From: the human T2T-CHM13v2.0 reference genome, Homo sapiens
NCBI RefSeq assembly: GCF_009914755.1
Contig: NC_060932.1
Length of the DNA stretch: 64,000 nt
Direction: 5' to 3' (one strand)
Position 1 is the first letter of the stretch; every line of letters starts with the position of its first letter. The position numbers were made by a program, and so were the translations under genes. This document shows, one piece after another, positions 1,701 to 61,700 of this stretch. The notes beneath the pieces were generated by a model, which was given only the letters and a program-made list of their open reading frames with translations, ran no database searches and was not told where the DNA came from.

Positions 1701-3089
1701 TCTGCTTATCTACTCTTCAACATTTTTTAAGTGTAAAACTCTTATTTTAGACATGTCAGGGATGCTATTTCAGAATCTAATCATTTAAAGCAAGGAGATA
1801 ATTCCATATAACGAAAGAAGTAATGTCTTAGTGCAGCTCAGCTCCTAGCATTCTAAGCCAACAGAGGTGAAAAGGGGACATATTTACACAGCTTAACCAT
1901 AAAAATAATACTGATTTGGGGGCACAAGAGGATGTAGAGAAAAATATAAAGGGAAGACCAGTATTTTAGTATGCTGCAAGCATATACTTCAACTTTTTAT
2001 TGACAAATATTTCAATTAATCTTTTTGTCTTATATACTGTAGCCCACATATCATCAAAGTAACTTCATTTTAATTCATTTCATAGAACCATAGGATTTTA
2101 GACAGGACTTTGGAGATGATTTTGTTGTACTTCATTTTAAGATGAGGATATCTGAGGTTCAGATAAATTAACCTCTTGTGTTACAGAGCATGGACCAGAC
2201 CCAGGATGTCAGGGGTTTCCAAGTCAGCATTTTTTCTGGTATCCTCTGCTGCATCTGGCTATCTTGTGATGTTCTAATTTTAGAGTGACAAAAATGAGAA
2301 CCAGTTATATGCAAGGATCATAGCTTGTTAGCAGATCAGGGATTATAATTCAGATGTTCTGATTTGTAAAACAATTTTTAATTAAATAAGGTAAATTATA
2401 TTTTAATTTGAATTGTGTTTAAATTATTTAAGATGTTATTTCATTTACAGTAAATATGAGAACGATTTCAAAATATTTAGAATATAATATAATGCCATTT
2501 TGCTCCCTCCCCCTCTGCCCCCATCATTAAAACTCTTGCTGTTTTCCATTTATTGGCTCTTAACATGGCCTTTGAGGGTCTATATAGTATCAGAATCAAG
2601 GAGAGAATTTAGATTTCTTTAATTGTAAATGATGTCCTTCCACTTTCCCACACTTTGAATTCAGGTACACTTAAAGTCCATGAAGTTGTTATACTTCCTT
2701 CTTCTACAAACATTCAGCATCTACAAAATAATATATGATGAAAGACTAAATGCGTTCCTCTTAAGATTAGGAACAAGATAAGGATATGCACACTCACCAC
2801 TCCTATTCAGTGTAGTACTTGATATCCAGTGCAATAATATAAGAAAAGGGGATAAAAGGCACAGAGATTGGAAATGAAAAAATTAACTTTATATTTGCAT
2901 TTAACATTATTTTCTACATACAAAGTTCTAAGAAATCTCCAAGAACTTACAAGAACTAGTGAATTTAGTAAGATCACAGAATACAAGATCAACCACACAA
3001 AAATCAAATTGTATTTCTATATGCTAATACCATTTACAATTTCAAAATGTAATACTAAGTATAAATCCAACAAAACACCTACAGGACCT

Positions 3090-3492
3090 TGATGAAGAGT
3101 CAAACTCTAAAATATTGAAGAGATTTATTTTGAGCCAAATATGAGTGACTAATGGGCTGTGACACAGCCCTCAAGAGATCCTGAGAACATGTGCCTAAGG
3201 TGATTGGGTTACAACTTGGCTTTATACATTCTAGAGAGACGTAAGACATCAATCAATACAGGTAACATGTACATTGATTTAGCTTAGGAGAGTGGGACAA
3301 CTGGAAGTGGGGACTTCCAGGTCATAGACAAATCCAAAGATTTTCTGATTGGGAGTCGGTTATTATTGATAGAAACTGGTGTCTGGGATATGATAAGGGG
3401 TTGTGGAGACCAAGGTTTTATGCAGATGAATCTTCCAGGTAGCAGTCTTCAGAGAGATAATAGATTGTAAATGTCTAGACTTAAAGAGTCTG
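3090..3492 (-). mobile_element. MER4-family ERV1 LTR (partial)
   Basis: aagagtcaaactct...gaagagatttattttgagccaaatatgagtgac matches the reverse complement of the recalled MER4 LTR 3' end. Confidence 0.8.
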
Positions 3493-4009
3493 AAACATAA
3501 CCATTTATATGGATTGGAAGACAATATATTAACTAAGTTGCCCCCAAGTTGATTTATGGGTTTAATACAAGTCCTATAAAAATCCCAGAAGGATTCTTTG
3601 TTGAATGATTCTGATTCTAAAGAATCGGAATAAAGCTCATTCTAAAATACATTAAAAAGCAAAGGAACTAGAATATCCTAAGCAATTTGAAAACAATGTA
3701 GTTGGAGGAATCACACTACCAGATATTAAGACACATAAGTACAGTAATCGGGACTGTGATATTGGTACTGATTGTGTGGTTTTGGTAGTGATAGACACAT
3801 AGCTCAGTGATAGACGCAGAATAGAGTACAGAAATAGACCTACACAAGTATGAAAAACTAACGTCTGACAAAGGTACATAAGCAATTCAATAGATGAATT
3901 GTGTTAGAAAAATTGAATTTCGAACAAAGGGTGTTGGAACAATTGAATAGTCATAGCTAAGAAAGAAAAACCTCAACCTCAACCTTCTACCTTATAAAAA
4001 CTTTTACTC

Positions 4010-4300
4010 CCTAGGCATGGGGGGCTCGTGCCTATAATTTCAGCTAGTTGGCAGGCTGAGGTGGGAGAACAGCTTGAGGCCAAGAGTTTGAAACTAGGGT
4101 AGGCAACATAGTGAGAACCTCTCTCTAAAATTTTAAGAAATTAGCTGAGCATGGTGGCATGTACTTTCAGTCCCAGCTACTTGGGAGGCTGAGGCAGAAG
4201 GATCACTTGAGACCAGGAGTTTGAGGCTGTGGTGAGCTGTCATCACACCACTGCACTCTAGCCTAGGCAAGAGAGCAAAACCTTGTCTCTAAAACAAAAA
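4010..4300 (+). mobile_element. AluJ-type SINE
   Basis: Diverged dimeric Alu with gaggatcacttgag motif. Confidence 0.9.
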
Positions 4301-4811
4301 TTAACTCAAAATGGGTCATGTTCTTACTGTAACATATAAAACTGAAACTTAGAAGCAAACAGGAAATCTTGAGCAAGGGTTAGGCCAACTGACATTAAAA
4401 TTCCTTAAAAAAACATTGAATTTTGTAAAAAATAAAAACATTTTGTAGAAGACCCTGTTAAAGAGGATGAAAAGGCAAGCCATAAACGGAAAATATTTGC
4501 AAGCACATGTTCAACAGAAAACTTATGTCCAGAATATATAAAGAACTTGCAAAATTTATTAGGAAGAAATAATCCAATTAGAAAATGGGCAAAAGACTTG
4601 AACAGACACTTCATCAAAGAAGCTGTACAGATAATAAGCACATGAAAAGATGTTCAGCATCATTATTAATAGGGAAGTGCAAATTATAACAAGATACCAT
4701 TGAACACCTATTAGAATAGCTGGTAATAACACATGCTGAGATATGCAGAGCCACTTTCAGACATTTTGTCTGAAATTGGAAATTTTACATTTCCACCACA
4801 GGTTTAGCTAC

Positions 4812-9043: not shown

Positions 9044-9607
9044 TGAGTTTGTACTTAATTTTTTCTATTAACAAACCTCAAATGTCAGTGGACAAATTTT
9101 CAATTCAAAGTTTTAACAGTCATTGATTAGAAATAATAATAAAGTTTGATTTTTCAATTGGATAATTTTCCTCCTACAAGCTTGTAGAAGTACGCCACCT
9201 AGAGTTTTAAATTTTTTAAATTATAAAAACTGCAGGCTGGTTTTTTCTTACTTTTTTTTTTTTTTTGGTCTGTTATTTTAAACTAAAAGTAGGCATATTT
9301 TAATCAAAATCAAGCCAAATATTATAATAATCGTGGAATTTTATCATAAATTTTATCATAAATCGTGGAATTTTATCATTCTTGGTTTTTACATGTAACT
9401 TTCTCGAGATTGCTATATAGGGGATAGAATATTTTTGTTCAATATTTCCGGATTAAACAATTCACCTGTATGCCCACATAAGATGGATAATAAATCATGC
9501 TCAGGAATTGTAAAGTCTGATTCAATGATATTAGGACTAATTTTAATATGTTATTATCTGTACCAATTCAAATATATATAAATACTTGAAAGATATAAAT
9601 AGATCAT

Positions 9608-9703: not shown

Positions 9704-9753
9704 ATGACATAGCCATTGAGTAAGCTTAAATACTGGAGATGCGAACATTACCA
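9704..9753 (+). pseudogene. Relic exon C (50 nt, phase 0->2)
   Basis: ttgcag|ATG...CCA|gtaagt; MT*PLSKLKYWRCEHY; followed by a 74-nt GT-AG intron. Confidence 0.65.
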
Positions 9754-9827
9754 GTAAGTAACGTTTTTCAAATGCTAATAAACTGTGGATGAAAATAACT
9801 TTTTATTTGGCTTCTTATGGTTTTCAG

Positions 9828-10068
9828 GTGGACATGATACATGCGTATTTCTTGGGAAAAAATCTAGAAAGAATTGGTTTTATAATTTATCCATAGACCT
9901 AAATATCTTTATTGAAAAGATAATGAATAAGATGTTGAAGCCTATAGGCTTCTTCAACTAGGCAGTGTCAAAAAGCATTGAGATGTTATAGTGCTTATGA
10001 TGGAGAAAGATATCATTGAAAAAATTGTAAAACTTTGTTTGGATTTAAAACCAAAGCTATTTGCAGAG
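9828..10068 (+). pseudogene. Relic exon D (241 nt, phase 2->0)
   Basis: ttttcag|G...GAG|gtaaac; WT*YMRISWEKI*KELVL*FIHRPKYLY*KDNE*DVEAYRLLQLGSVKKH*DVIVLMMEKDIIEKIVKLCLDLKPKLFAE. Confidence 0.65.
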
Positions 10069-10164
10069 GTAAACAGCCTTTATCTTATTCCTGCTTTAAA
10101 AGATTCTGTTCTCTTCTGGTTTTTATATCTGTTGATATGTAATGCTTGAAATTTTTACTTTTAG

Positions 10165-10243
10165 ATGTTTAGACTTTAGAACAATTATAGGCAAAGGTTG
10201 TTTTCTGCAAGATGGCCCACGAGAAATCAGATTATCTAAGGAA
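10165..10243 (+). pseudogene. Relic exon E (79 nt; one extra T in the run at 10168-10170)
   Basis: tttttacttttag| acceptor 96 nt after the exon D donor; removing one T gives MLDFRTIIGKGCFLQDGPREIRLSKE|gtactg, stop-free. Confidence 0.55.
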
Positions 10244-10568
10244 GTACTGCTTTGATTTATTGGTGTCCTGAATTAATAATTTCTAAAAGCTAAACGAAAA
10301 ATTCCTGTACACGAGGGGAACTTGTCTTCAATTTCCTTTTCCTTTCCCATACAACATCTAACATATATTGAGCCCACAGTGAATGCTTATGAATATTTGT
10401 TGATTTCATATTTTGTCTCCAAGCCAGCTAATGGTGAGGAGCTAAATGTCATTCAATTGCTAAACTTTAACACTCAAATTAGGTTATCAGACTATGAATT
10501 TGGTTAGTAAAGTTGGAAAGCTGTTTGTGGTTTTGTTTTTTAATTGAATGTGGCCAATTTTATTTAAG

Positions 10569-10682
10569 GCTCAGCAGGAACTTTGTGATAGCAGTTATCT
10601 ATTCCAGCAGTTCAGAATGAAAGACTTGGGAAATTTCTCAGTCCATTAAGAATATGAAGCAGACAGAAAAATTACCCATTGG
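10569..10682 (+). pseudogene. Relic exon F (114 nt, phase 0->0)
   Basis: ttttatttaag|GCT...TGG|gtaaca; AQQELCDSSYLFQQFRMKDLGNFSVH*EYEADRKITHW. Confidence 0.55.
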
Positions 10683-10905
10683 GTAACAGTAAATGTTGGT
10701 GTTAAACAAAAAACAAAAAATGTATTTTTCAGTTTTAAGGGATGCATAAATTTTATTTATAGTATAGCCTCAGGACTGAATATGCTGCCTAGAATGTCTT
10801 CCAGTTGCTATGGGGAGTTCTGTTATTTGTCAATGTAGGGTTTCCTACTTGGCAGCATTATGTATTTATGATGGCATCTGTGTTTTCTGGTTGTTGCATT
10901 TGCAG

Positions 10906-11077
10906 TGAAACTTGTATTTTGACCAGTTGAAGAGAGAGGGGAAAAGAAAGCAAATTAAACTTGACTTCTTGGTAACGAAGCAGTAGCTTCTTGTTACTTG
11001 CATCATTATATTCCAAGAACACCAAATGCAACTGCAGTTGTGTGCCATACTTACTCTAGATATAACTGACTACATTT
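10906..11077 (+). pseudogene. Relic exon G (end uncertain: donor after 10971 or 11077)
   Basis: ttgcatttgcag|; *NLYFDQLKREGKRKQIKLDFL(VTKQ*LLVTCIIIFQEHQMQLQLCAILTLDITDYI); the longer form is phase 0->1 but has a weak donor (gtagta). Confidence 0.45.
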
Positions 11078-11390
11078 GTAGTATAATAAAATTTTATAAT
11101 AATATTAAAACCCAAAAGTTAAAAAGAGTATTATGCTTTGTCAGTTTACATGGCATTTTTTCAAGTGGAATTTTAATATGGGAAATTAAACTATGTAGAA
11201 TGATGTTTTTTGTTTTCTTTTTAGTTAAAGAAAAACTATCATCACCTATACCATTGTGTAAGTTTTATTAGAACAAGTGAAAATCTAAATGAACTAGTTT
11301 AAAAATTGTTTCCCTTCAAATTTTATGAGAGAAATAGAATAAAAAGTGAACTCATAAGTATCTGGTATTTCTTCTTAAAAATTTTTTCAG

Positions 11391-11556
11391 TATACGTTTT
11401 AGATTTCGTTTTACTACACACTTAGCTCAAGCTTGTCTTCTAAATTAATCTGCATCTACTACATTGACCTATAATGCTTGATGATGTTCATAAAGATTAT
11501 CTTCAGTCATCCTAAGAGTGCCTTTTTAATATTAAGGACATAGAAGCACCCTCTTA
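11391..11556 (+). pseudogene. Relic exon H (166 nt, phase 1->2)
   Basis: attttttcag|; ends PIMLDDVHKDYLQSS*ECLFNIKDIEAPS then TA|gtattg; 4 stops. Confidence 0.45.
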
Positions 11557-11972
11557 GTATTGGTTCTAAATATGAGGAATGAACTCTCAAATGCTCATAT
11601 ATTAAATTATATTCTCCATAATTTGTAGATTTGCAGATTATGTTCATTGTAATTTGTGTATTTCTTTTTATCTGTTGAATAATGGCAGTCTCAGAGGCAA
11701 AGTTTAGTTAAATATCTACTAACTTAATGTAAAGCATTGTATATACTCTAACTATGGTACACAATTATATTCCCTGGTTTCTGGAAGCTTATAAAATGAA
11801 TATACCAGTGGTCCTGGTATGTACAAAACAGAAGGCTGCATGGAGACAAAAATCTGATGCTTAGATCTTGCCTTCAAGGAGCTTGTAATTTAGTTTGTAG
11901 ATAATGCATAAGAATGAAAATTATTTCCATATAATCAGACTATGGCTTTCCAGTAGGTCAGTATAAAAGTGA

Positions 11973-12281: not shown

Positions 12282-12763
<482 letters not shown>

Positions 12764-12959
12764 TAAGTTTTAGGGTACATGTGCACAACGTGCAGGTTTG
12801 TTACATATGTATACATCTGCCATGTTGGTGTGCTGCACCCATTAACTCATCATTTAGCATTAGGTATATCTCCTAATGCTATCCCTCCCCCCTCCCCCCA
12901 CCCCACAACAGTCCCCAGTGTGTGATGTTCCCCTTCCTGTGTCCACGTGTTCTCATTGT

Positions 12960-16799
<3,840 letters not shown>

Positions 16800-16847
16800 T
16801 TATTTTTCTCATTAGTTGATGCAGTTCCTTCCTAGCCTTGATGGTCT

Positions 16848-17863
16848 TTACAATTTGGCATGTTTTTCCAGTGGCTGGTACCGGTTGTTCCTTTCCATGT
16901 TTAGTGCTTCCTTCAGGAGCTCTTTTAGGGCAGGCCTGGTGGTGACAAAATCTCTCAGCATTTGTTTATCTGTAAAGTATTTTATTTCTCCTTCACTTAT
17001 GAAGCTTAGTTTGGCTGGATATGAAATTCTGGGTTGAAAATTCTTTTCTTTAAAATGTTGAATATTGGCCCCCACTCTCTTCTGGCTTGTAGACTTTCTG
17101 CCAAGAGATCAGCTGTTAGTCTGATGGGCTTCCCTTTGTGGGTAACCCGACCTTTCTCTCTGGCTGCCCTTAACATTTTTTCCTTCATTTCAACTTTGGT
17201 GAATCTGACAATTACGTGTCTTGGAGTTGCTCTTCTTGAGGAGTATCTTTGTGGCGTTCTCTGTATTTCCTGAATTTGAATGTTGGCCTGCCTTGCTAGA
17301 TTGGGGAAGTTCTCCTGGATAATATCCTGCCGAGTGTTTTCCAACTTGGTTCTGTTCTCCCCGTCACTTTCAGGTACACCAATCAGACGTAGATTTGGTC
17401 TTTTCACATAGTCCCATATTTCTTGGAGGCTTTGTTCATTTCCTTTTATTCTTTTTTCTCTAAACTTCTCTTCTCGCTTCATTTCATTCATTTCATCTTC
17501 CATCACTGATACCCTTTCTTCCAGTTGATCGCATCAGCTACTGAGGCTTGTGCATTTGTCACGTAGTTCTCGTGCCGTGGTTTTCAGCTTCATCAGGTCC
17601 TTTAAGGACTTCTCTGCATTGGTTATTCTAGGTATCCATTCATCTAATTTTTTTTCAAGGTTTTTAACTTCTTTGCCATTGGTTCGAACTTCCTCCTTTA
17701 GCTCGGAGTAGTTTGATCGTCTGAAGCCTTCTTCTTTCAACTCGTCGAAGTCATTCTCCGTCCAGCTTTGTTCCATTGCTGGTGAGGAGCTGTGTTCCTT
17801 TGGAGGAGGAGAGGCGCTCTGATTTTTAGAGTTTCTGGTGTTTCTGCTCTGTTTTTTCCCCAT
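16848..17863 (-). pseudogene. L1 ORF1, disrupted
   Basis: MGKKQSRN...RYQPLEKHAKL split by a stop at 17534-17536 and a frameshift near 17050. Confidence 0.95.
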
Positions 17864-18438
17864 CTTTGTGGTTTTATCTACCTTTGGTCTTTGATGATGG
17901 TGACGTACAGATGGGTTTTTGGTGTGGATTTCCTTTCTGTTTGTTAGTTTTCCTTCTAACAGTCAGGACCCTCAGCTGCAGGTCTGTTGGAGTTTGCTGG
18001 AGGTCCACTCCAGACCCTGTTTGCCTGTGTATCAGCAGCGGTGGCTGCAGAACAGCGGATATTGGTGAACCACAAATGCTGCTGCCTGATCGTTCCTCTG
18101 GAAGTTTTGTCTCAGAGGAGTACCCGGCCGTGTGAGGTGTCAGTCCACCCCTACCGGGGGGTGCCTTGCAGTTAGTCTACTCGGGGGTCAGGGACCCACT
18201 TGAGGAGGCAGTCTGCCCGTTCTCAGATCTCAGGCTGCGTGCTGGGAGAACCACTACTCTCTTCAAAGCTGTCAGACAGGGACATTTAAGTCTGCAGAGG
18301 TTACTGCTGCCTTTTGTTTGCCTGTGCCCTGCCCCCAGAGGTGGAGCCTACAGAGGCAGGCAGGTGTCCTTGAGCTGTGGTGGGCTCCACCCAGTTTGAG
18401 CTTCCTGGCCACTTTGTTTACCTACTCAAGCCTGGGCA

Positions 18439-18702
18439 ATGGCGGGCACCCCTCCCCCAGCCTTGCTGCCGTCTTGCAGTTTGATCGCAGACTGCTGTGC
18501 TAGCAATGAGCAAGGCTCCGTGGGCGTAGGACCCTCTGAGCCAGGTGCAGGATATAATCTCCTGGTGTGCCATTTGTTAAGCCCATTGGAAAAGCGCAGT
18601 ATTAGGGTGGGAGTGACCCGATTTTCCAGGTGCCATCTGTCACCTCTTTCTTTGACTAGGAAAGGGAATTCCCTGCCCCCTTGCGCTTCCCCGGTGAGGT
18701 GA
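18439..18702 (+). CDS. L1 ORF0 homologue (antisense ORF in the L1 5'UTR), open, 87 aa; expression unknown
   Basis: MAGTPPPALLPSCSLIADCCASNEQGSVGVGPSEPG... matches the recalled primate L1 ORF0p N-terminus; GT donors after 18544 and 18629. Confidence 0.7.
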   Translation: MAGTPPPALLPSCSLIADCCASNEQGSVGVGPSEPGAGYNLLVCHLLSPLEKRSIRVGVTRFSRCHLSPLSLTRKGNSLPPCASPVR

Positions 18703-18869
18703 TGCCTCGCCCTACTTCGGCTCATGCACGGTGCACTGCACCCACTGTCCTGCACCCACTGTCCAGTACTACCCAGTGAGATGAACCTGGTACCTCAGTT
18801 GGAAATGCAGAAATCACCCATCTTCTGTGTCACTCATGCTGGGAGCTGTAGACTGGAGCTGTTCTTATT

Positions 18870-18880
18870 CGGCCATCTTG
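18870..18880 (-). promoter_or_regulatory. Intact YY1 site at the L1 5' end
   Basis: cggccatcttg = CAAGATGGCCG on the minus strand, at its canonical position. Confidence 0.8.
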
Positions 18881-19339
18881 GCTCCACCCCCTGAGAAAAC
18901 AATATTTTTTAGAGGCACAGTGAGTAGATTTTTCTTACTAGGATGGAGAATTTTAAAAAGCAAGTAGAGAGAAGGAAGGGTGGGAGGTATTACTATATTA
19001 GAACAAATATTTATCTAGCACTTTACAATTTATAAGAGATTTCTATGTAATTCCCATTTGATCTAAATACCTGTGATCCAGTATTTTTATTAATCCTATG
19101 TAAAAAATAAATATAGCACTGAAGCAGTTGGGAATTATTGTTATAAAATATAAATGAGCAAAACATAAATTTAACCTTTGATGAGCTAAAGATAAAAATA
19201 TAACAAAAATTAGGGTGGGGTAGAGGGTAGGTGCAAGGTAGAGTGTGATAATTTAATCTTTCATTACAAAGAGGCTGATTAAAGTTAAGACACATGGTTT
19301 CAAAAGTGACATCAAAGATTCTTAACATTTTTTTCTCAG

Positions 19340-22993: not shown

Positions 22994-23041
22994 CAAACAC
23001 AGTTTTAAATTTAGAGATTCTAATAAAGAAGCTCATTTCAG
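22994..23041 (+). pseudogene. Relic exon K (48 nt, phase 1->1, stop-free)
   Basis: ttccattttgtattag|...TCAG|gtatgt; NTVLNLEILIKKLIS; followed by a 72-nt intron containing ctaac. Confidence 0.65.
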
Positions 23042-23113: not shown

Positions 23114-23296
23114 AAAGCTATGTAAAACATTTTGAAAAATCCATTTAATAACATGAAAATATATGCTGAAAAGTGATTGATGTCTTCTACTTTGGCACTG
23201 CTGCTTACTCAGAGTCAATTGATATAAATTCTATCTGTGAACATTCAAGTTTAACTTCATTTGGAATACTATCAAATAGATTAGACTGAATAAAAG
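23114..23296 (+). pseudogene. Relic exon L (183 nt, phase 1->1)
   Basis: ctctttcag|...AAAG|gtagga; SYVKHFEKSI**HENIC*KVIDVFYFGTAAYSESIDINSICEHSSLTSFGILSNRLD*IK. Confidence 0.65.
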
Positions 23297-23388
23297 GTAG
23301 GAAACAATACCAATGTGCAAAGCAGTGGCACATCTGTAAATGATGACATTATATTACAGGCTTAATAAACCGTTTCATTTCATTTTAG

Positions 23389-23483
23389 CTTTAGATGCAA
23401 TACTTCATATGGCTCAAAGTAAATTATTGAATCCTGGTAACAAGGAAATGAATAAGATTATTAGCATTGCAACAAAGCTCTGA
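23389..23483 (+). pseudogene. Relic exon M, probable last coding exon
   Basis: tttcatttcattttag|CT TTA GAT...; LDAILHMAQSKLLNPGNKEMNKIISIATKL then TGA; AATAAA at 23582-23587. Confidence 0.6.
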
Positions 23484-27806: not shown

Positions 27807-30534
27807 CGAAAGTCAAATAAATTCTAAGATTAAGATTAAGAACTTCCCTTCATCAAAAATCACCATAAAGTGAAAAGATAAACCACTGGGAGATGATACT
27901 TGCAATATATATAACAAACAAGTGATTAGTGTCTCTCTAGAATATATATATGTATATAATGTGTATAATGTATATAATATATACATAAAATATATAATTA
28001 TGCATAAATGTAATACATATAACTTGCAATATATATAACCAAGGTATTAGTGTCTCTCTCCAATTAATACATACATATTTTATATATATAATGTATATAT
28101 GCACAAAAATATATAATTATACATAAAAATGTTATATAATCATATGTAACATTTTTCTTATGAATTAAAATAGAGAAATGGACAAATTCAACTTATTTCA
28201 AACTGAACTTACTATCTTCTTCCAGAGAGCAGCTCCACCTACTAACTCAGGTGAAAAAACCTCCAAATTATCTTAAACATCCTTCTAAATTATCTTAAAC
28301 ATCTTCCTTTGCATGCCTGTAGCCAATTAATCTCCAACTTTTGGTGATTCTATATCTGAATTGTTTCCTAAATTGTCCCCTTTTCTTCTAGTTCCACTGA
28401 CACTAACTTGGTTCAAATCTTCGGATACATATTCCCTTTAGCCTAGGGAAATACAATTCTAATTGATTTCCCTCTTCTTCCTTCATTATTCATTCTTTTT
28501 GCAGTGCCAACAGAAAGTTGTTTTTTGTTTTTTTAACACAGAACAAGCTTGTCATTCTTCTATTCAAAAATTCACCATGGTCTATAAATTTTGACTCTTC
28601 ATTTTTCAGTTTTATCAAATTATGCATACATATAGCTTAAAGAGTCATGGCCACTACTATTACTACTGCTATAACCATTTGGGTTCTCATAATGAATTTC
28701 CTTAGGGGTTTCCAGTGTCTTCTGATCAAACGAAAGAGATAGATAAAGATTTTCACAGTCCATTTTAAAATTTTTCATGAGAATTTCCTTGTCTGTTTAT
28801 CTTGGTCTGCTATTTGAAGGGCTTAGGATGCCTTTCCTTGTCTTCTCTATTCTGCCTCAGGGACAACTTAAGTCCTATGTAATTAGTTTTGATAATACTT
28901 TATATCAAAGCATATAACTATATGACTTAATTTATTACATACTTGGCTTTATTTAACTATTTCATATTTATTATTATTATCTCTTCAGCGACTTCCCAGG
29001 CCTATAAAATGCCATCTGAAGTAACTGCTTTCAAAATTTTCTTTCTGAATATTTTTATAATGTCCAGCACCATGGGTTAATCCAGTAACATGAATTATAG
29101 ATACTTAAATAACATATTAATTGGTCTAAATTTTAGGTGAATACATAAAGGAAGGAAGAAACTCAATCTTCCAGTAATATATACAGTTTTTGGAAATATA
29201 AATGCTGCATGGCTGATCATGCTATTTTTCTACTCATCCTTTCTTCCCTCCTCAAGACATTTTCTCCAAGAAGTCTTTTTCAAAACTTCGCTTTATGGTG
29301 GTTTTGGAAAAAATAAAATAAAGCAGGTTGACTCAGGGGTGGCAGAAAAGAAACCTTTAGCCAGCCAAAAAAAAAAAAAAGTCTCCCTTACTCCCTCAGC
29401 AGAGTTGGATTCCCAAATAGTCACAAATCAACAACAGTTAATGAGGCTGTTCTTACCACTAATAGTGCTTTACATTGCAGGGATTTCTGGTGGATCATTT
29501 GGCATTTTCATTTCCTTGACATATGCAGAAGGCATTTAAAGTTGTCAGATTAAAGATATTTCTATTACTTTAGACTTCTTGGAAATCTCAAGTGAAAAAG
29601 TACCATCATGGCACATGGAGGAAAACTAAATCTCTCCCTTTCCTAGTTTAGCTAATTTTTGTTGTTGTTATTGTTTCAACTTCAGATATAGTTGGGAAAA
29701 TATGTGTTTATTTTAAAATTAGCAATATGTGTTTATTTTAAAATTTGAAACAATTACTTTAAATATGGATTATTTAAAAGTTTTGCTAATTAAAATAAGG
29801 TATCAACACAGTGAATTTTCAGTATTTAAAAAATTAAGGTATTAACTGTACCCACATTCAAGATAAAAAAGGAAGAGATTCTGCTAAAATGTAGAATTTC
29901 GACTGATGGATAAAAACATCAGAAAACACTCTGGAATAAAATTCTGTTCATAGGCTGTGGTTACAAGTGCCTATTTTTAAACAACTTTATTGAGATATAA
30001 CTGATACACAAAAAACTGCACATATTTCATATACACAATTTAATGAGTTTGGACAAACGCATATACCCTTGAAATCATCACTACAGTCAAAGTAGTTATC
30101 ACATCCATCACCTCCAAAAGTTTCCCTATGCTCTTTTTTGTTTGTTTTTGTAGTAAGCACACTTAACCTGTGATCTACCCTCTTAACAAAATTTTTACGT
30201 GCACAACACAGTATTGTTAGTTGTAGGCACTGTGTTGTAGAGCACATCTCTATAACTTATTCATCTTGCATAACTGAAACTTTATACTCATTGACAACTC
30301 CCAATTTCCTCCTAACCCCATCCCCTGTCAACTACCATTCTACTCTCTTTCTTTGAGATTATTTTAGAAACCTTATATAAGTGGAATCATGTAGTATTTG
30401 TCCTTCCGTGACTGACTTCTTTCACTTATCATAGTGTCCTCAAAGTCATCTAAATTTGTTGCATTTGGCAGATTTCCTTCTTTTTAAAGGCTGAATTGTA
30501 TTCCATTGTATGTATTAAATATATACCACAATTT

Positions 30535-30801
30535 CTTTTTTTAATTATTTTTTAAAAGGTTTTAAGTTCAGCAGTACATGTTCAGGTTTGTTACATAGAT
30601 AAACTTGTGTTATGGGGGTTTGTTTACAGATTATTTCGTCACCCAGGTATTAAGCCTAGTAAACATTAGTTATTATTCCTGATCCTCCCCCCTCCTCCCA
30701 ACCTCCACCTTCTGATGGGCCTCAATGTGCATTGTTCTCCTCTATGTGTCCATATATTCTCATCATTTAGCTCTCACTTACAAGTGAGAACACGTGGTAT
30801 T
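30535..30801 (-). mobile_element. Short older-L1PA (about PA13-16) 3' end nested in the older L1
   Basis: gtttgttacatagataaacttgtgttatggggg...cacccaggtattaagcctagt. Confidence 0.75.
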
Positions 30802-32152
30802 TTATATGCCATATTTTCTTTATCCATTCATCTATCAATTTACATTTAGGTTGTTTCCACATCTATGCTATTGTGAATAATGACGCAGTGAACATAGGAG
30901 TGCAGATAATCTGTCTGAGATCCTGACTTCATTTTTGTGTGTGTATATACCTGGAAGTGGAAATTTCTGGATTGTATAGCAGTTCAATTTTTAATTTTTA
31001 GAGGCACTTCTATATTGTTTTCCATAGTAGCTACACTGTTTTCTATTCCCACCAACAGTGTAAAAGGATTTTGATTTTTCCCTGGTGATTAGTGATGTTG
31101 AGCATGCCTATTGGTAATTTGTATGTCTTCTTTAAATAAATGATTATTCAAGTCCTTTGCCCAATTGTTAATCAGGATACTTGTTTTTAAATTCGATTTG
31201 TTTTTGTGAGTTCCTTATGTGTTTTGGATATTTACTCTCTATCAGATATATTGTTTCCAAATACTTTCTTCATTCCATAGGGAGCCTTTTTATTCTGTTG
31301 CTTTCTTTGCTGCACAGAAAGCTTTTTCATTTGATGTAGTCCCACTTGTCTATTTTTCCTTTTGTTGCCTGTGCTTTAGGTGTCATATCCAAGATGTCAT
31401 TTCCAAGACCAATGTCAAGAAGCTTTTCCTTTATGTTTTCTTCTAGGGGTTGTACAGTTTTGGATCTTAGATTTAAGACTTTAAATCCATTTTGAGTTTA
31501 TTCGTGTGTGTGGTGTAAAGTAGGGGTCCAATTTCATTCCTTTGCATGTAGATATCCAGTTTTCTCACCACCATTTGTTGAAGAAGATTCTTTCCCCATT
31601 GTGTATTCTTGGCACCATTGTCAAAGATTAGTTGACCATATATGTGTGAGTTTATTTCATCACTCTCCATTATGTCCCACTGGTCTATACATCTGTCTTT
31701 ATGCCAGTACCGTACTGTTTTAATTATTGTAGCTTTGTAATATATTTTGAAATCAAAACATGTGATGCCTTCAACTTTGTTCTGCTTTCTCAAGACTATC
31801 AAGGTCTTTTGTAGTTCCATATTAATTTTAGGATTGTTTATCCTATTTCTGGAAAAAAAGTCTTTGGAATTTTGATTGTGATAGCATTGAATTCATAGAT
31901 CATTTGGGGGTAGTGTAGATATTTTAACAACACTAAAACTTCCAATTCATTAATGTGGGATGTCTTTCCATTTATTTGCATCTTCTTTAATATATTTCAT
32001 CAATGCTTTGTGGTTTTCAGTGTACAAGTCTTTTACCTCCTTGGTTAGGTTTAATTCCTGAGCAAATTATTCTTTTTGATACTGCTATTAATGGGATTTT
32101 TTTCTTAATTTCCTTTACATAGTTCGTTATTCGTGTATAAAAATGCAACTAG

Positions 32153-32451
32153 GGCTAGGTGCAGTGTTTCACATTTGTATTCCCAACACTTTGGGAGGCT
32201 GAGGTGAGAGGATCATTTGAGCCTAGGAGATCAAGACCAGCCTGGGCAACATAGGGAGACCTTGTCTCAAAAAAAAATTTAAAAACTAGCTAGGCATGGT
32301 GGCACATGCTTGTGGTCTCAGCTACTTCGGAGGCTGAGGTGGGAGGATCGCTTGAGCCTGAAGGTCAAGGCTGCAGTGAGCCATGATCATGCCACTGCAC
32401 TCCAGCCTGGGTGATGGCGTGAGACCTTGTCTCAAAAAAAAAAAAAAAAAA
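32153..32451 (+). mobile_element. AluJ SINE nested in L1
   Basis: Full dimer with A-tail. Confidence 0.93.
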
Positions 32452-35400
32452 GACAATTTTTACACATTGATTTTATGTCCTGCAACTTTACTGAATTCAC
32501 TTATCAGTTTTAAAAGGTTGGTGTGTCTCGTGTGTGTGTGTGTGTGTGTGTGTCTAGTTTTTAGGGTTTTCTACACATAAGATCATGTCATTGGCAAACA
32601 GAGATAGTTTTACTTCATCTTTCCTATTTGAATGCCTTTTATTTCTTTTTCTTGCCTAATTGCTCTGGCTAGGACTTCCAGTACTATATTGAATAGAAGT
32701 GGTGAGAAAGAGCACCCTTGTCTTATTCCTGATCTACAAGAAAAGCTTTCAATTTTTCACTTTTGAGTATGAAGCTGTGAACTTGTCATATGCAGCTTGT
32801 ATTATTTTGAAGTAAATTCCTTCTATACCTAGTTGGTTGAGAATTTCCTTTTTAATCATGAAAGGCTGTTGAATTTTGTTAATTTCATTTTCAAACTATT
32901 GAGAGTAATATGTGATTTTTACCCTAATTTCTTTTAATGTGGTGTATCACATTTATTGATTTGCATATATTGAATCATCCTTGACATATCAAAGATAAAT
33001 CCCACTTGTTCATGGTGTATGATCCTTTTAACATCCCATTGAATTCAGTTTGCTAGTATTTTACTGAGGATTTTTGAATCTATGTGCATCAAGAGTATTG
33101 GACTGTGGGTTTTTTTTATTGTAATGTCTTTGGCTTTGGTATCAGGGTAATGCTGACTTCATAAATGAGTTGAAAGTATTCCCTTCTCTTCAGTTTTTGG
33201 TAAGAGTTTGAGAAGGATTGGCATTCATTCTTTATATATTTGGCAGAATTCACCAGTGAAGCCATTTGGTTCTGGAATTTTCTTTGTTGGGAGATTTGTG
33301 ATTACTGGTTTAATTTCCTTAGTTGTTATTTGTCTGTTCAAATTTTCTATTTCTTTATGAGTCAGTCTTGGTAGGTTGTATATTTCTAGGAATTTCTTCA
33401 TTTCTTGTAGGTTTTACAATTTGTCAGCATATAATGGCTCATAATAGTCTCTTATGTCCTTTATGTTTCTTGGCTTTAGTTATAATTTTTCCCCTTCATT
33501 TCTAATTTTATTTATTTGAGTCTTATCTGCTTTTTTTGGTTAACCTAGCTAAAGGTTTATCAATTTTGTTTAAGTTTTCAAAAAACAAACTCAGTTTTAT
33601 TAATTTTTAAAAATATTCTCTATTTAACTTATTTCTGCTCTAATCTATTATTTTATTGCTCTGCTAACTTTGGGCTTAGTTTGTTCTTCTTTTTCTAGTT
33701 CACTCCCTTTGTGGTTGGAAAAGATACATGATATGATTTCACTTTAAAATAATTTTTCAGACTTGTTTCCTGATCTAACATGTGATCTGTTCCGGAGAAT
33801 GTTCCATGTGCATTTGATAAGCACATGTATTCTGCTGCTGTTGGCTGATATACTGTCTACATGCCTATTAGATCCAGTTGGTCTATAGTATTATTCAGGT
33901 CCATTATTCGCTTATTGATTTGCTGTCTGGCTGTTCTACCTGTTATTGACGGTAGGGTTATGAAGCCTCCTATTATTATTGTATTGCTGTCTATTTCTCC
34001 TTCAGTTATGTCAATATTGGCTTCATATATTTATGTACCCCAATGTTGGTGCATATATATTTATAATTTATATATAATCCTGATGAATTGATCCTTTTAC
34101 CATAATATAATGTCCTTCTTTTTCTCTTGTAAAAGTTTTTGACTGGAAGTCTATTTTGTCTGATACAAGTTTAGCCATTCCAGCTTCCCAATCAAATTCA
34201 TCATTTTTTCCATCATATCTGTGTTCTGTTTCTTGGTTAATTGATTTACTAGTCTTTTAGTCACCAAAGTATAAAACTTGGACTCCTTTCTCTCCTTCAT
34301 GGTCATTAGTTCTGCAGTTCTGTCTCTGAAAGGCCTCTTCAATTTCCTTTCTCCATTCACTTTTCATTTTCTTGATTCAGAGCTTTACTAGCCCATTGCA
34401 TTATGCTCCTAATTGGTCTTCTACTCTCTCGAGCTTCTCAATGTGCCTTTCAATAACTTTGAGTATTTTGCATTAAGAACTTTGATTATTTTGCACTTGT
34501 TATGACATTAACTCTAACTTTATTAATAGAGCAATTAAGGTTCTTTCTAGCCTCAGTATTGTTATTGTTGGTGGTCAAGGGTAGGGCTTTAAAGCACACA
34601 GACCTGGATGAAAACTCCATTTTCACCACTTCCTGTGTAACTTACTCAGACAGATTTCCTAACTTTACTAAGACTAGTTTCCGTATCCACAAAGTGGTAA
34701 TTATGAGAGCAATAATAATTTCCATTTCCTAGAATTTACGTAGGGATTAAATAAGCTATAATCCACTTAAAGTGCCCAGCATGTAGCATACACTTAATAA
34801 GTTAGCTTTCATTTTTATTTTTCTACCATTTCATCCACCATTCCTATTGCCTTGTATGCTATGAGTTTTTCAGATTTCGTCAGTCTTTCTTCCTATGTTT
34901 CCCCTTCTCTAACTGATAAACTTGTTTACTTGTTTTCAAAGTCCGACTTAAATGCCACTTCTTCAGTGAAGGTTTCCTTGGCTGAACTGACTTAATTAAT
35001 CACTCTTTCTTCTGAGTTTCCTGTTGCATATTCATACTAACAATTGGGTTCATAACATTGTAACATAGCTGTATATTTGAAAAGGCTCTTCCCCTTATAC
35101 ATTGTATACATGCTCAAAGGTTGAGACCATATCTGGTCCATCCTTATATCCTCAGTACCTAACAAAGTGTTGAATGAAAGAAAATGCAAATACTTCCATT
35201 TCTATCCTGATTTTAAGCTCTGTTCACCTTGAACTAGTTACCTGAAAATATTGACAGCTGAAGGTCTTTCTCAAGGATAATTTAAAAAATAGTAAATTGA
35301 CAACACACTACTAATTTAGCAGTACTTTAGAAAGTTTGGAAAATGAAAGTAAAAATTTACCCACAATCATGCAGTTGTCACAGAATTTCTATTTTTTTTT

Positions 35401-40356: not shown

Positions 40357-41143
40357 AAGGGCAGCAAGTTTTAGAGTACAGCTATCAGAAAGAAATGTTG
40401 AAATAGACATATGACTGAGTTCAACTTCTATTCTACAGTATAGAAAACTGAGGTACTGAGAGGTTAAAGGATTTTCCCCAAAACACACAGATGATGTGAG
40501 TGGTAGAGGTGATGGGAAAAGGCTGTGAATGTTGCTAATATATCAGCATTCTTTTATGACCATGATTCAGAGACAGATAGGAAAAGGTAGACCCTCTACT
40601 TTCTATACCCAAATGGTGGCAACCCTGCTCTTGTTCTGGTAAGCCAAACAGCCTACCAGAGAAACCATTCAGAGAGACAGCTACCTCTGTGCATTTCTGT
40701 TTATTCTTTAGCCAAGACTTTGCTTCAGGGTTGATTGAAAAGCCTTTTGCCTGCTTCTAGGTGTGATAGGAAATATAAATTCCTCTTTAGGGATGGATTT
40801 TTGAAACCTCTTGCACTGTGCAGAGTTAGGGAGGACAAAAACAATGCCTATTTCCAAGAGGATAAGAATACTTCACCTGGTCTACTTGAACTGAATTTTG
40901 GGATGCGGTTGTTAGGAAAGCAGATAATGAAGTTAAGAGATCTGGAGGAGAGTGACAAGAAGAGGTGAGAGTCGGGAAGGAGAGAGAGAGAGAACCAGGC
41001 AAGGAACAAGTACTACAAGAAGAAGATTGTTCTTTATCATAAAAGTAGAAGAAACATTTTTAAGCATTTCTAACTAAGAATAAATGACATGATAGGATTT
41101 ACATTTTGGAACTATGTGGCTGCAGTCTAGAAGAAGGATTCTT

Positions 41144-58749: not shown

Positions 58750-61700
58750 TGTTTGTTAGAATCAAGTTATTAGGTTTAGTCCACACTCAAGGAAAGGGAT
58801 TTACACAAGGGCATGAATACCAGTAAGGATGGACCACATTGGGAGCCACTTGAGAAGGCTTACGACAATAATAATGTAAAGAACATGAGAAGAAAAAATA
58901 ATATATTCACATATAATAATATGTTTGCATAGATATTTATCATTTCTATTGCTCTTCCTTTATTACTGATGGTTCCAAATTTCCTTCTGTTATCATTTTA
59001 CTTTCTGTCAGTGAAATATCTGTTATCAATTATTTCAGAATGGATATGCTGATAATGTATTCTCTTAATTTGTCTTCTATTGGGAAAGCATTTTCTTCAC
59101 CTTTTTTTTCTGAAGGCTATTTCACTGCGTACAGTAGAGCAGTCTGGGTTAACAGTTGTAGTTCTTTAAAATGTATTCAATTGCATCTGACCTCCATGTT
59201 TTCCAATTAATCTGAAGTGTTTTCTTATAAATAATATGTCATCTACTCTGATTACTTTCAGATTTTTTGTCTTAATTTTTAGCGGTTTAATTATGATAGA
59301 TTTCTTTGAGTTTCTCTTGTTTAGGATTCCTGGGCTTCTTGAATCTGTACATCTACATATTTCACCATATTTTCAAAGTTACAGCCATCATATCTTCAAA
59401 AAAATTTTAGCACTGGACTCTTTCTCTTCTTTGGTATTCTAATGGCACAAGTATTAGATCTTTTGACATATTACTATAAAATGAGGCTCTGTTATCTTTC
59501 TCCCAGTATCTTCTTCCCTTTTTTGTTGTTGAGAATTTTAATCTTTTCTTTGATTCCTAGAGTGCTCTCCTTTATTTATTATAAGGTCTTTGTAAGATAA
59601 TTTCAACATCTGTGTCACTTCAGTGTTGCTGTCTATTGGTTGTCTTTTTCCATACAGATTGAGATTTACTAGTTCTTTATATGACAAATAATTTTAGATT
59701 GTAGGCTGGATATTTTGAATGTTACATTATGCAACCCTTGGTTTTGTTTAAATCCTATGGAGAATGTTGATATTTTTTGTTTTAGCAGGCAATTGGCCCA
59801 ATTTTATCTAGCTCACAAGTTCTGTCCAGCCTTCTGTGAATTGCAGTTCCAATGTAAGCTTCATTCTCAAAGCCTTTGTAAGTACTTTTCTGATCTGTCC
59901 AATGTACACACCACCCAATGGCCATTCTAGAACCTATCTCATAGTTCAGTTCTCATAGTGTTTGTTAAGCTGTTTAGGATCCAATCGATGCATATACAAC
60001 TTGAGAAAAAGCCTAGGAGTTCATAAATAATTTTATGGGGTTACTTTCCCAAGATCCTTCCTGTTCCTAGCACTTTCTAGTTTCCTGATGTTCCCAAAGT
60101 TGATCTTCTGGCTAGGATGATGGAGCTTTATTTAACCTGCTTTGCTTCCCACTTGTCATAAATGCACCTACAATGGGACCCCTTGTTGAGAGGAGAGATA
60201 GAGAAAAGGGCAATGGGGTTTCATCCCACCCTAACTGAATCTGAGTTTCCTTACTCACTGTGCATTAAAACACATTTTATTGTTAACATTATATTATTTT
60301 TAAACTTCTTTGAAATGAGTTTGGAAGGGAAAGTCATTTTGCTGAAAGCTTGCACCTTTCTCATTTGAATCAAAGGACCGTACTCTGTCTGTTACCAAGC
60401 ATCGGAAACACATGGTGGGGCCAGCTGCCTCAGGTAAGTACCGTGTACTAAGGGAATTCTTTGCAGAAGGAGAGATCTGAAATCAACTGCCAGATGAGGA
60501 ATCAGACAACAGGGGGAAAAAAAAGAGAGAGAGAAGAGTACAAGAAAGAAATGGTTAGGGCATCTGATAGATATTGGTCTTGGTGTGATGACCTGATGTT
60601 GAAGTTAAAACACCACCACCAGCCCTAAAGTTAGGTTCATGTAATTTTTAGTTGTGTTCAGTCTTTATGGGACAAATTCCAAATCCTACAATGGCTTCAG
60701 TTTGACAGGCCTTTTGTCTATTCAAACCATATTTCTTTCTACTACAGGTTAATATTATTGAAAGATCATATTTTGATGTTTCTGGTTTCTGGAAAGTTTG
60801 TGAGATCAAAGTAAATGAAAACCAGGACTTTTAGCTATGTTCTTACCACCTTTTCAAGGTAAGGGCACAAAGGAATTCTATTCATAGACAAATAAATACT
60901 TTAAAGATTTAGTTTTATGTGAATAAAATCTTTAATAAGTATTGTCCATTTTAGACTCTGAACTGGGCACTTAAAACCATGTGATTGGTTATTAGAATAA
61001 AAATAAAATGATTTTTAAAAATAAATAAAACCTCCTAAGTGGGGCAGAAAAATGATGTCATTGAAATCTGAAAACTGTCTTTAACAGTTTATGTTTATAC
61101 AGTGATATCCTGCTGATGTCTGATGTAAAAGAAAAAGAAAAAAAACTTCTTAGAGAAAATTAGCTACTTGAACTAAGGCTGCCGAATGCATTTAAATCCT
61201 GCAATTTTGGCAGAATATCACATCATCTAAATGGGGGGAGATAAACTCGAGGTGTAAAGGATATGAAATGCAGTTTGCATTCTTGACTTCCCAGACAGTA
61301 GATTGCAGAAGGTGATAAGTTAAAGCTTCTGAGGAAAAAGGTAAACTAATTCTGGAGCTGCCAGTGATATATCCTGGCTGGACTAAAATCAAAGTATTTT
61401 CATTAGCCTAGGCAGCCTAAAAGACATAGTGTTATTTTATTTTTTAAAATATAATTTCCACCTTGTAAATACATCATGATATTTCTTATTGGAGAACTTG
61501 CAGTTGGGTATAATTTTAAAATGGCTCATGTTTTTAGCAATGAGGAAAAAATAACCTTGAGCATAAATAACATGAATATTAATAATGTTTAACTAAAGAA
61601 TGAAGAATTACATCTTAAAATAATTCCTGTACTCTCTTCATAATCATGCATTATGTATGAGAGGCAAAGTGCTCTGAGCATCTCTGAGGATAAAAAGTGA

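What the first reader, a model, noticed from the sequence alone, without database searches (positions are those of the whole stretch)
9704..11556. Reconstructed product looks like a repeated-RGS-domain protein (RGS22/RGSL1-like)
Seen: LKYWRCEHYQ, VIVLMMEKDIIEKIV, FLQDGPREIRLSKEAQQEL, YFDQLKREG...LDFL and IMLDDVHKDYLQS; later exons give KVIDVFYFGTAAYSESIDI and LHMAQSKLL. Established: RGS domains carry ENxxFWLACExYK, IYxxFIxxxAPKEVNID and LMEKDSYPRFLKS motifs, and RGS22 has several divergent RGS domains. Inference: a lost, divergent multi-RGS gene. The similarity is by eye and weak.
Basis: inference. Interest (0 to 1): 0.7.

Follow-up and report, generated by a model that had tools for sequence, protein, structure and literature searches.

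The report
Possible ancient RGSL1-like pseudogene relic
An unannotated, single-copy stretch just downstream of human EMC2 has splice-site-bounded pieces full of stops and frameshifts, one of which weakly resembles part of the protein RGSL1, so it is possibly the long-dead remnant of an RGSL1-like gene that likely makes no protein today, though chance resemblance is almost as likely.

Summary
They sit in nine AG…GT-bounded pieces (9704-11556, 23114-23436) with 10 stops in 295 codons and at least four frameshifts. The repeated-RGS reading found no statistical support: Pfam RGS, a canonical RGS profile and RGS22 profiles scored at shuffle level, with limited power. One piece does stand out. Exon B (9828-10068) aligns to RGSL1 residues 881-935, its C-terminal RGS-like domain, and ends at a phase-0 donor two codons from RGSL1's own intron. 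Corrected p lies between about 0.015 and 0.16, depending on the test. The cluster is no more gene-like than background DNA in an unbiased exon-chain test. No intact orthologue turned up among 1.84 billion proteins. Four chance ORFs from presumably mammalian orthologous DNA show no exon-over-intron conservation and carry frameshifts in exon E. Verdict: about 45% a relic of an RGSL1-related gene that died long ago, 35% no gene at all. A syntenic search in marsupial, bird or reptile genomes would settle it.

The parts
9704..9753 (+). candidate pseudo-exon A (50 nt, stop at 9710, one base short of frame with B)
   Evidence: AG…GT borders, strong donor, weak acceptor; no family similarity
9828..10068 (+). 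candidate pseudo-exon B (241 nt; two frame changes that can be placed in A-runs near 9857 and 9915; stops at 9928 and 9979); the 3' two-thirds aligns to RGSL1 881-935
   Evidence: strong acceptor and donor; RGSL1 match; donor two codons from RGSL1's phase-0 intron
10165..10243 (+). candidate pseudo-exon C (79 nt, out of phase with B by an indel)
   Evidence: register after the shared intron is best of 12 offsets, but 341 of 5000 shuffles reach it
10569..10682 (+). candidate pseudo-exon D (114 nt, stop at 10647; reading frame of the second half uncertain)
10906..10971 (+). candidate pseudo-exon E (66 nt, first codon TGA); frameshifted relative to human in 3 of the 4 orthologous-looking ORFs
11225..11257 (+). 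candidate pseudo-exon F (33 nt, open)
11391..11556 (+). candidate pseudo-exon G (166 nt, weak sites, needs a frame change; least reliable piece)
23114..23296 (+). candidate pseudo-exon H (183 nt, 4 stops), separated from G by 11.5 kb that includes a long masked repeat block
   Evidence: no family similarity
23389..23436 (+). candidate pseudo-exon I (48 nt, open, phase-compatible with H)

Best explanation
This single-copy stretch holds splice-bounded pieces broken by stops and frameshifts and is likely the decayed relic of an old gene related to RGSL1, which likely died before the sampled mammal lineages split and so would make no protein today. Shown: the pieces, their disablements, single copy in the genome, and a borderline match of exon B to RGSL1's C-terminal RGS-like domain with a nearby intron of the same phase. 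Inferred: that the pieces were once spliced together, and that B, C and D made up one RGS-fold domain (helices 4-5 in B, helices 6-9 in C and D). Also inferred: that the ancestral protein worked like RGS22, as a non-GAP RGS-fold scaffold of sperm tails or motile cilia (RGS22's role from PMC13443885; extending it to this gene is analogy only). How many RGS domains it had is unknown.
For: RGSL1 family profile (19 eutherian proteins) against the read-through fixed beforehand: best hit is exon B, and 6 of 1000 shuffles reach the score. Against 8,706 real genomic translation chunks the exon B chunk ranks 2nd with the domain profile (10.9 bits, between two true RGS22 exons at 20.6 and 10.4; next 8.0) and 5th with the full-length profile. 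Frameshift-aware alignment to 10 domain profiles: RGSL1 last domain z 4.3, and 5 of 400 GC-matched null sets reach that maximum. Of 54 exon x frame x family tests only this one stands out (z 5.5, next 1.8). All 8 RGSL1 proteins tested place the best hit in the same domain. RGSL1's exon ends at a phase-0 donor two codons from B's donor; a G|GTR site within two codons arises by chance at 1.7% of positions, any GT at 25%. Single copy in the genome. The human stop opening exon E reads as a sense codon in the four orthologous-looking ORFs (inferred).
Against: The match is weak in absolute terms: SW 63, E about 1.8 had a whole proteome been searched; hhalign probability 0.85%, E 0.065; unedited frame reached by 3 of 1000 shuffles, which is about 0.16 after 54 tests. 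With 50-residue chunks and 11 profiles the best focal rank is 8 of 18,772, about what chance gives. The RGSL1 exon does not find the locus genome-wide. No other exon matches RGSL1 or RGS22, and a combined RGS profile misses B-C-D (960 of 2000 shuffles). The cluster is not above background in an exon-chain test. Orthologous-looking ORFs are no better conserved in exons than introns (57 of 82 against 191 of 308 identical, p 0.25; frameshifts 3 against 10, p 0.74). No intact orthologue found. Only 8 kb, much of it repeats, lies between EMC2 and exon A, too little for an RGSL1-sized 5' part.
Confidence: 0.45

Rival explanations
1. No gene ever existed here: this is ordinary, old, AT-rich unique DNA in which AG…GT pairs, short open frames and a weak RGSL1 likeness occur by chance.
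For: Exon-chain score no higher than background; exons and introns equally conserved and equally frameshifted in four orthologous-looking ORFs; no intact orthologue; the RGSL1 match has whole-proteome E about 1.8; pieces and frames were chosen by eye.
Against: The hit fell on one of the two proteins named in advance, survives correction in two of the tests, and coincides with a strong donor near RGSL1's intron. The negative tests lose power at 25% decay.
Confidence: 0.35
2. It is a relic of a real multi-exon gene unrelated to RGS proteins; the RGSL1 likeness reflects only a helical, amphipathic sequence.
For: Seven AG…GT pieces in 1.9 kb, most scoring nearer coding DNA than the introns between them (by-eye selection applies); the only PDB hit for exon B is a designed helical repeat protein at E 0.043.
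Against: No Pfam family for any piece beyond E 0.14; no protein hit in a coding frame.
Confidence: 0.12
3. It is an old, unprocessed, partial duplicate of the 3' end of RGSL1 itself rather than a gene with its own history.
For: The only match is to RGSL1's last domain, and there is no room for a long 5' part after EMC2.
Against: Divergence is far beyond that among eutherian RGSL1 proteins (62-93% identical to each other, against 22 identities over the 81 codons of exon B); RGSL1 has an intron inside the span that B covers as one exon; neighbouring exons do not match RGSL1's next exons.
Confidence: 0.08

Closest known systems
RGSL1 (regulator of G-protein signaling protein-like; P0125-P0198)
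   Same: Exon B aligns to residues 881-935 with matching spacing of the LQ, DVI, II.K and PKL motifs, and has a phase-0 donor at nearly the same place.
   Different: Only about 55 of 1076 residues match; the other exons do not; exon sizes differ; this locus is broken and unannotated.
RGS22 (four RGS domains; radial-spoke component that lacks G-alpha contact residues, PMC13443885)
   Same: Same chromosome arm, AT-rich small exons; its last domain is homologous to the RGSL1 domain that B resembles.
   Different: No significant similarity at protein or genomic level; exon sizes do not correspond.
Human unitary pseudogenes lost early in mammals (Mudge et al. 2019, PMC6886504, Data S3)
   Same: Untranslated multi-exon relics with stops, frameshifts and worn splice sites; that list includes cases dated to placental mammals.
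   Different: Those have an identified intact orthologue; none is known here, and this locus is not among the 44 rows.
Canonical RGS domain (Pfam PF00615)
   Same: By-eye echoes of helix motifs only.
   Different: No hit by Pfam or by a local profile.

Membership tests
RGS domain (PF00615) | Match to the RGS profile above cut-off | tested here: inconclusive
   0 of 10 pieces hit RGS; no row for this locus among 57 genome matches, which also had no row in the RGS22 region; local profile 1.2 bits, 190 of 2000 shuffles. Decayed RGS22 domains at 50% identity exceed 4.5 bits in only 12, 16 and 3 of 50 trials.
RGS domain (PF00615) | Nine-helix RGS fold | not testable with these tools
   No intact orthologue to fold, and the folding tool takes no spliced read-through.
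RGS domain (PF00615) | G-alpha contact residues / GAP activity | not tested
   The alignment register outside exon B is too uncertain to place these residues.
RGSL1-like proteins | Sequence homology to an RGSL1 domain | tested here: inconclusive
   Exon B against the last domain: corrected p about 0.015 to 0.16; hhalign E 0.065.
RGSL1-like proteins | Shared intron positions | tested here: inconclusive
   One phase-0 donor two codons away from RGSL1's; RGSL1's intron before residue 890 has no clear counterpart; other RGSL1 introns known only approximately.
RGS22/RGSL1-type multi-RGS proteins | Several tandem RGS-like domains | tested here: inconclusive
RGS22 | Homology to the RGS22 family profile | tested here: not met
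   -3.2 bits, 184 of 1000 shuffles; four-domain profile 713 of 1000; no tblastn match.
Unitary pseudogene | Disabled reading frame | tested here: met
   10 stops in 295 codons and at least four frame changes in the working model.
Unitary pseudogene | No close functional parent copy in the genome | tested here: met
   DNA and exon B protein searches find only the locus itself; both searches score only first-look candidates.
Unitary pseudogene | Exon-intron structure beyond chance | tested here: inconclusive
   not above null, and the 25%-decay positive control is not above null either.
Unitary pseudogene | Intact syntenic orthologue in another species | not testable with these tools
   No other vertebrate genome can be read here. 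Protein searches found none; simulated detection 19 of 20 at 60% identity, 9 of 20 at 50%, 1 of 20 at 40%.

The most novel reading that the evidence does not exclude
A third, unnamed member of the RGS22/RGSL1 family of ciliary RGS-fold scaffolds sits between EMC2 and TMEM74, is still intact in non-placental vertebrates (perhaps the 74-78 residue chordate 'RGSL protein (Fragment)' clusters that match exactly the RGSL1 span of exon B), and was lost at or before the root of placental mammals.
Probability: 0.28. Interest if true: 0.55.

Novelty: new member of a known kind. Interest (0 to 1): 0.3.

Why it matters
If real, it is an uncatalogued ancient gene loss in a family just shown to build the animal-specific part of the ciliary radial spoke (RGS22, PMC13443885). 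It would point to an unstudied sperm or cilia protein in birds, reptiles or marsupials, and it would show that relics too decayed for conservation-based screens can still be read from one genome. It has no evident present-day function in humans. If it is chance, it is a caution about reading motifs by eye in AT-rich DNA.

Tried and rejected
Pfam on 10 pieces: no RGS; only two hits at E 0.14-0.16 on one alternative frame. Word-based homologue search with the 46-residue exon B stretch, proteins of 82-2000 residues only: 15 candidates, none at E <= 10; proteins under 82 residues were never searched with this stretch. Exhaustive phmmer with one frame read through 9704-11557: 4 hits, all running through intron D-E in mixed frames, rejected as chance ORFs on orthologous DNA; that frame leaves out the RGSL1-like part of B. 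tblastn against 180 kb around RGS22 and 10 kb of RGSL1: nothing. Canonical, RGS22-domain, combined and hhalign RGS profiles: all at shuffle level (hhalign 55 of 150). First exon-chain test was confounded by GC content and was replaced (then 52). Strict splice scan listed none of the nine pieces. Rfam: 0 matches in the window. PDB sequences: one designed helical protein, not informative. The Atlas gave no result for window sequence, so no language-model evidence exists for the relic itself. Repeat origin: not in the listed mask and single copy, so rejected.

Full report
Observation. Seven of the eight quoted peptides translate exactly on the + strand; the eighth is a splice join of two pieces. 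Reading the DNA and fixing borders gives nine AG…GT-bounded pieces: A 9704-9753, B 9828-10068, C 10165-10243, D 10569-10682, E 10906-10971, F 11225-11257, G 11391-11556, H 23114-23296, I 23389-23436. The working model carries 10 stops in 295 codons and at least four frame changes. Two of these fall in exon B and can be placed in A-runs, which would make B 243 nt. The region lies 8 kb past the end of EMC2 on the same strand, is outside the listed repeat mask, is single-copy, and has no Rfam match.

Is it more than chance? Not shown. B has strong sites (top 1-3% of the window), others are middling and G's are poor (site weights are recalled frequencies). The chosen frames score around zero per base under a coding model, against about -0.01 to -0.05 for the introns' best frames and +0.03 for real exons decayed by 25%, but these frames were picked by eye. 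An unbiased exon-chain search gave 1.7, 9.5 and 21.6 under three penalty settings, reached by 107, 132 and 144 of 186 null windows. Real RGS22 exons had medians of 5.8, 19.9 and 37.5 at 15% decay and 0.9, 12.5 and 28.2 at 25% decay. So a recently dead gene is unlikely, and an old one cannot be told from background by this test.

Orthologues. The word-indexed protein database holds vertebrate RefSeq and UniRef entries. A word search with the 46-residue B stretch found nothing among proteins of 82-2000 residues. An exhaustive phmmer search with one frame read through 9704-11557 returned 4 proteins; simulation gave it 19 of 20 detections at 60% identity, 9 of 20 at 50% and 1 of 20 at 40%. That library carries no names, so its vertebrate coverage is assumed. 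All four hits run through intron D-E in mixed frames, so they are chance ORFs on orthologous DNA, probably mammalian (inference). They are equally conserved in exon and intron (57 of 82 against 191 of 308 residues, p 0.25), and three have a frameshift inside exon E relative to human (3 in 82 against 10 in 308 codons, p 0.74). This fits a gene already dead in the common ancestor, or no gene. Their being ORFs may bias the indel count.

RGS claim as stated. Pfam RGS hits none of 10 pieces and not this locus genome-wide (where the RGS22 region is also absent from the 57 rows). A local profile of 21 human RGS rows scores the read-through 1.2 bits, reached by 190 of 2000 shuffles. With H and I added, 133 of 1000 reach it; RGS22 family (15 of 120 listed proteins) 184 of 1000; RGS22 domains 713 of 1000, mixed set 107 of 1000, hhalign 55 of 150. 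Power is good at 70% retained identity (47 and 46 of 50), poor at 50% (12 and 16 of 50), and nil for an RGS22-domain-2-like sequence. The repeated-RGS reading is therefore unsupported, not excluded.

The one positive signal. A profile of 19 of the 74 RGSL1 proteins found aligns exon B to RGSL1 881-935; 6 of 1000 shuffles score as high. That RGSL1 segment is RGS-like because its profile picks RGS22's last-domain exons first (20.6 and 10.4 bits); Pfam itself marks only residues 646-753 of P0126. The exon B chunk scores 10.9 bits, second of 8,706 genomic chunks with the domain profile (chosen after the hit) and fifth with the full-length profile. A frameshift-aware alignment to 10 domain profiles gives z 4.3 for this domain; 5 of 400 GC-matched null sets reach that maximum, while the sum over profiles is reached by 55 of 400. 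Of 54 exon, frame and family tests only this one stands out (z 5.5, next 1.8), but the unedited frame is reached by 3 of 1000 shuffles, about 0.16 after correction. With 50-residue chunks that cut the match in two, the best focal rank is 8 of 18,772 over 11 profiles. hhalign gives probability 0.85%, E 0.065.

Intron position. RGSL1's exon for this segment ends at a phase-0 donor right after the PKLR motif. B's donor is phase 0 and two codons further on. A G|GTR site that close arises at 1.7% of positions, any GT at 25%; the two-codon window was set after seeing the result.

A lead. The Atlas, queried with RGSL1 859-936 (the span that B covers), returns two chordate clusters named 'RGSL protein (Fragment)', 74 and 78 residues, 61 and 56 members, score 0.93 (0.87-0.88 with 860-985). 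They may simply be RGSL1's best-conserved part in non-mammals, or exon B of an intact paralogue. I could not see their sequences, and proteins of that length were outside.

Mechanism. Today: most likely nothing; no frame is open. Ancestrally, if real: an RGS-fold protein nearer RGSL1 than RGS22. RGS22 lacks G-alpha contact residues in all four domains and is a radial-spoke component in cilia and sperm (PMC13443885: abstract, outline and nine passages seen). A structural role in sperm tails or cilia is thus the likeliest by analogy, and is untested.

Print. Not found by searches for EMC2+TMEM74+RGS (2 papers, listing only), RGS22+RGSL1+pseudogene (1, listing only), or (0 each). Mudge 2019 (PMC6886504): three passages seen; Data S3 read whole, no row here; Data S1 searched, no chr8 row at 108.4-108.5 Mb (hg38 position recalled); Data S6 is held cut to about half and I saw 12 of 22 and 4 of 4 places, none on chr8. 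Wen 2023 (PMC10195156): abstract and outline seen, one supplement searched, 0 occurrences. Kuraku and Kuratani 2011 (PMC3296468): listing only; its supplements could not be read and may list a chicken gene here. Current GENCODE could not be checked.

Verdict. RGSL1-related old relic 0.45, chance 0.35, relic of an unrelated gene 0.12, partial RGSL1 duplicate 0.08. If real it is a new member of a known kind. Interest 0.3.

Noticed in passing
window 40761-40964 (+): Strong acceptor and donor around a 204-nt stretch with one fully open frame; its 2-kb block is among the top-scoring background windows in all three exon-chain settings. Unannotated.
   Followed up: no
window 60748-60858 (+): Strong AG…GT pair, 111 nt, one stop in the best frame.
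   Followed up: no
window 22994-23041 (+): 48-nt open AG…GT piece with a strong donor 72 nt before exon H; may be a further piece of the same relic.
   Followed up: partly
window 12707-18900: Long masked block that looks by eye like an L1 on the minus strand (label recalled); it lies between G and H and could hide or have displaced exons. Older unmasked L1-like stretches at about 2700-4800 and 30000-34200.
   Followed up: no
window 10971-10973 versus P0001, P0004: The translations of two orthologous-looking ORFs imply GC where human has the GT donor of exon E (inferred).
   Followed up: partly
L006 (G000:C13:20512397-20512750) and G000:C13:40212100-40212249: RGS-domain matches each with one TGA inside, the first intronless over the whole domain; they look like pseudogene copies.
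   Followed up: no
window 9331-9380: Short imperfect tandem duplication of an 18-nt unit seen in the sequence.
   Followed up: no
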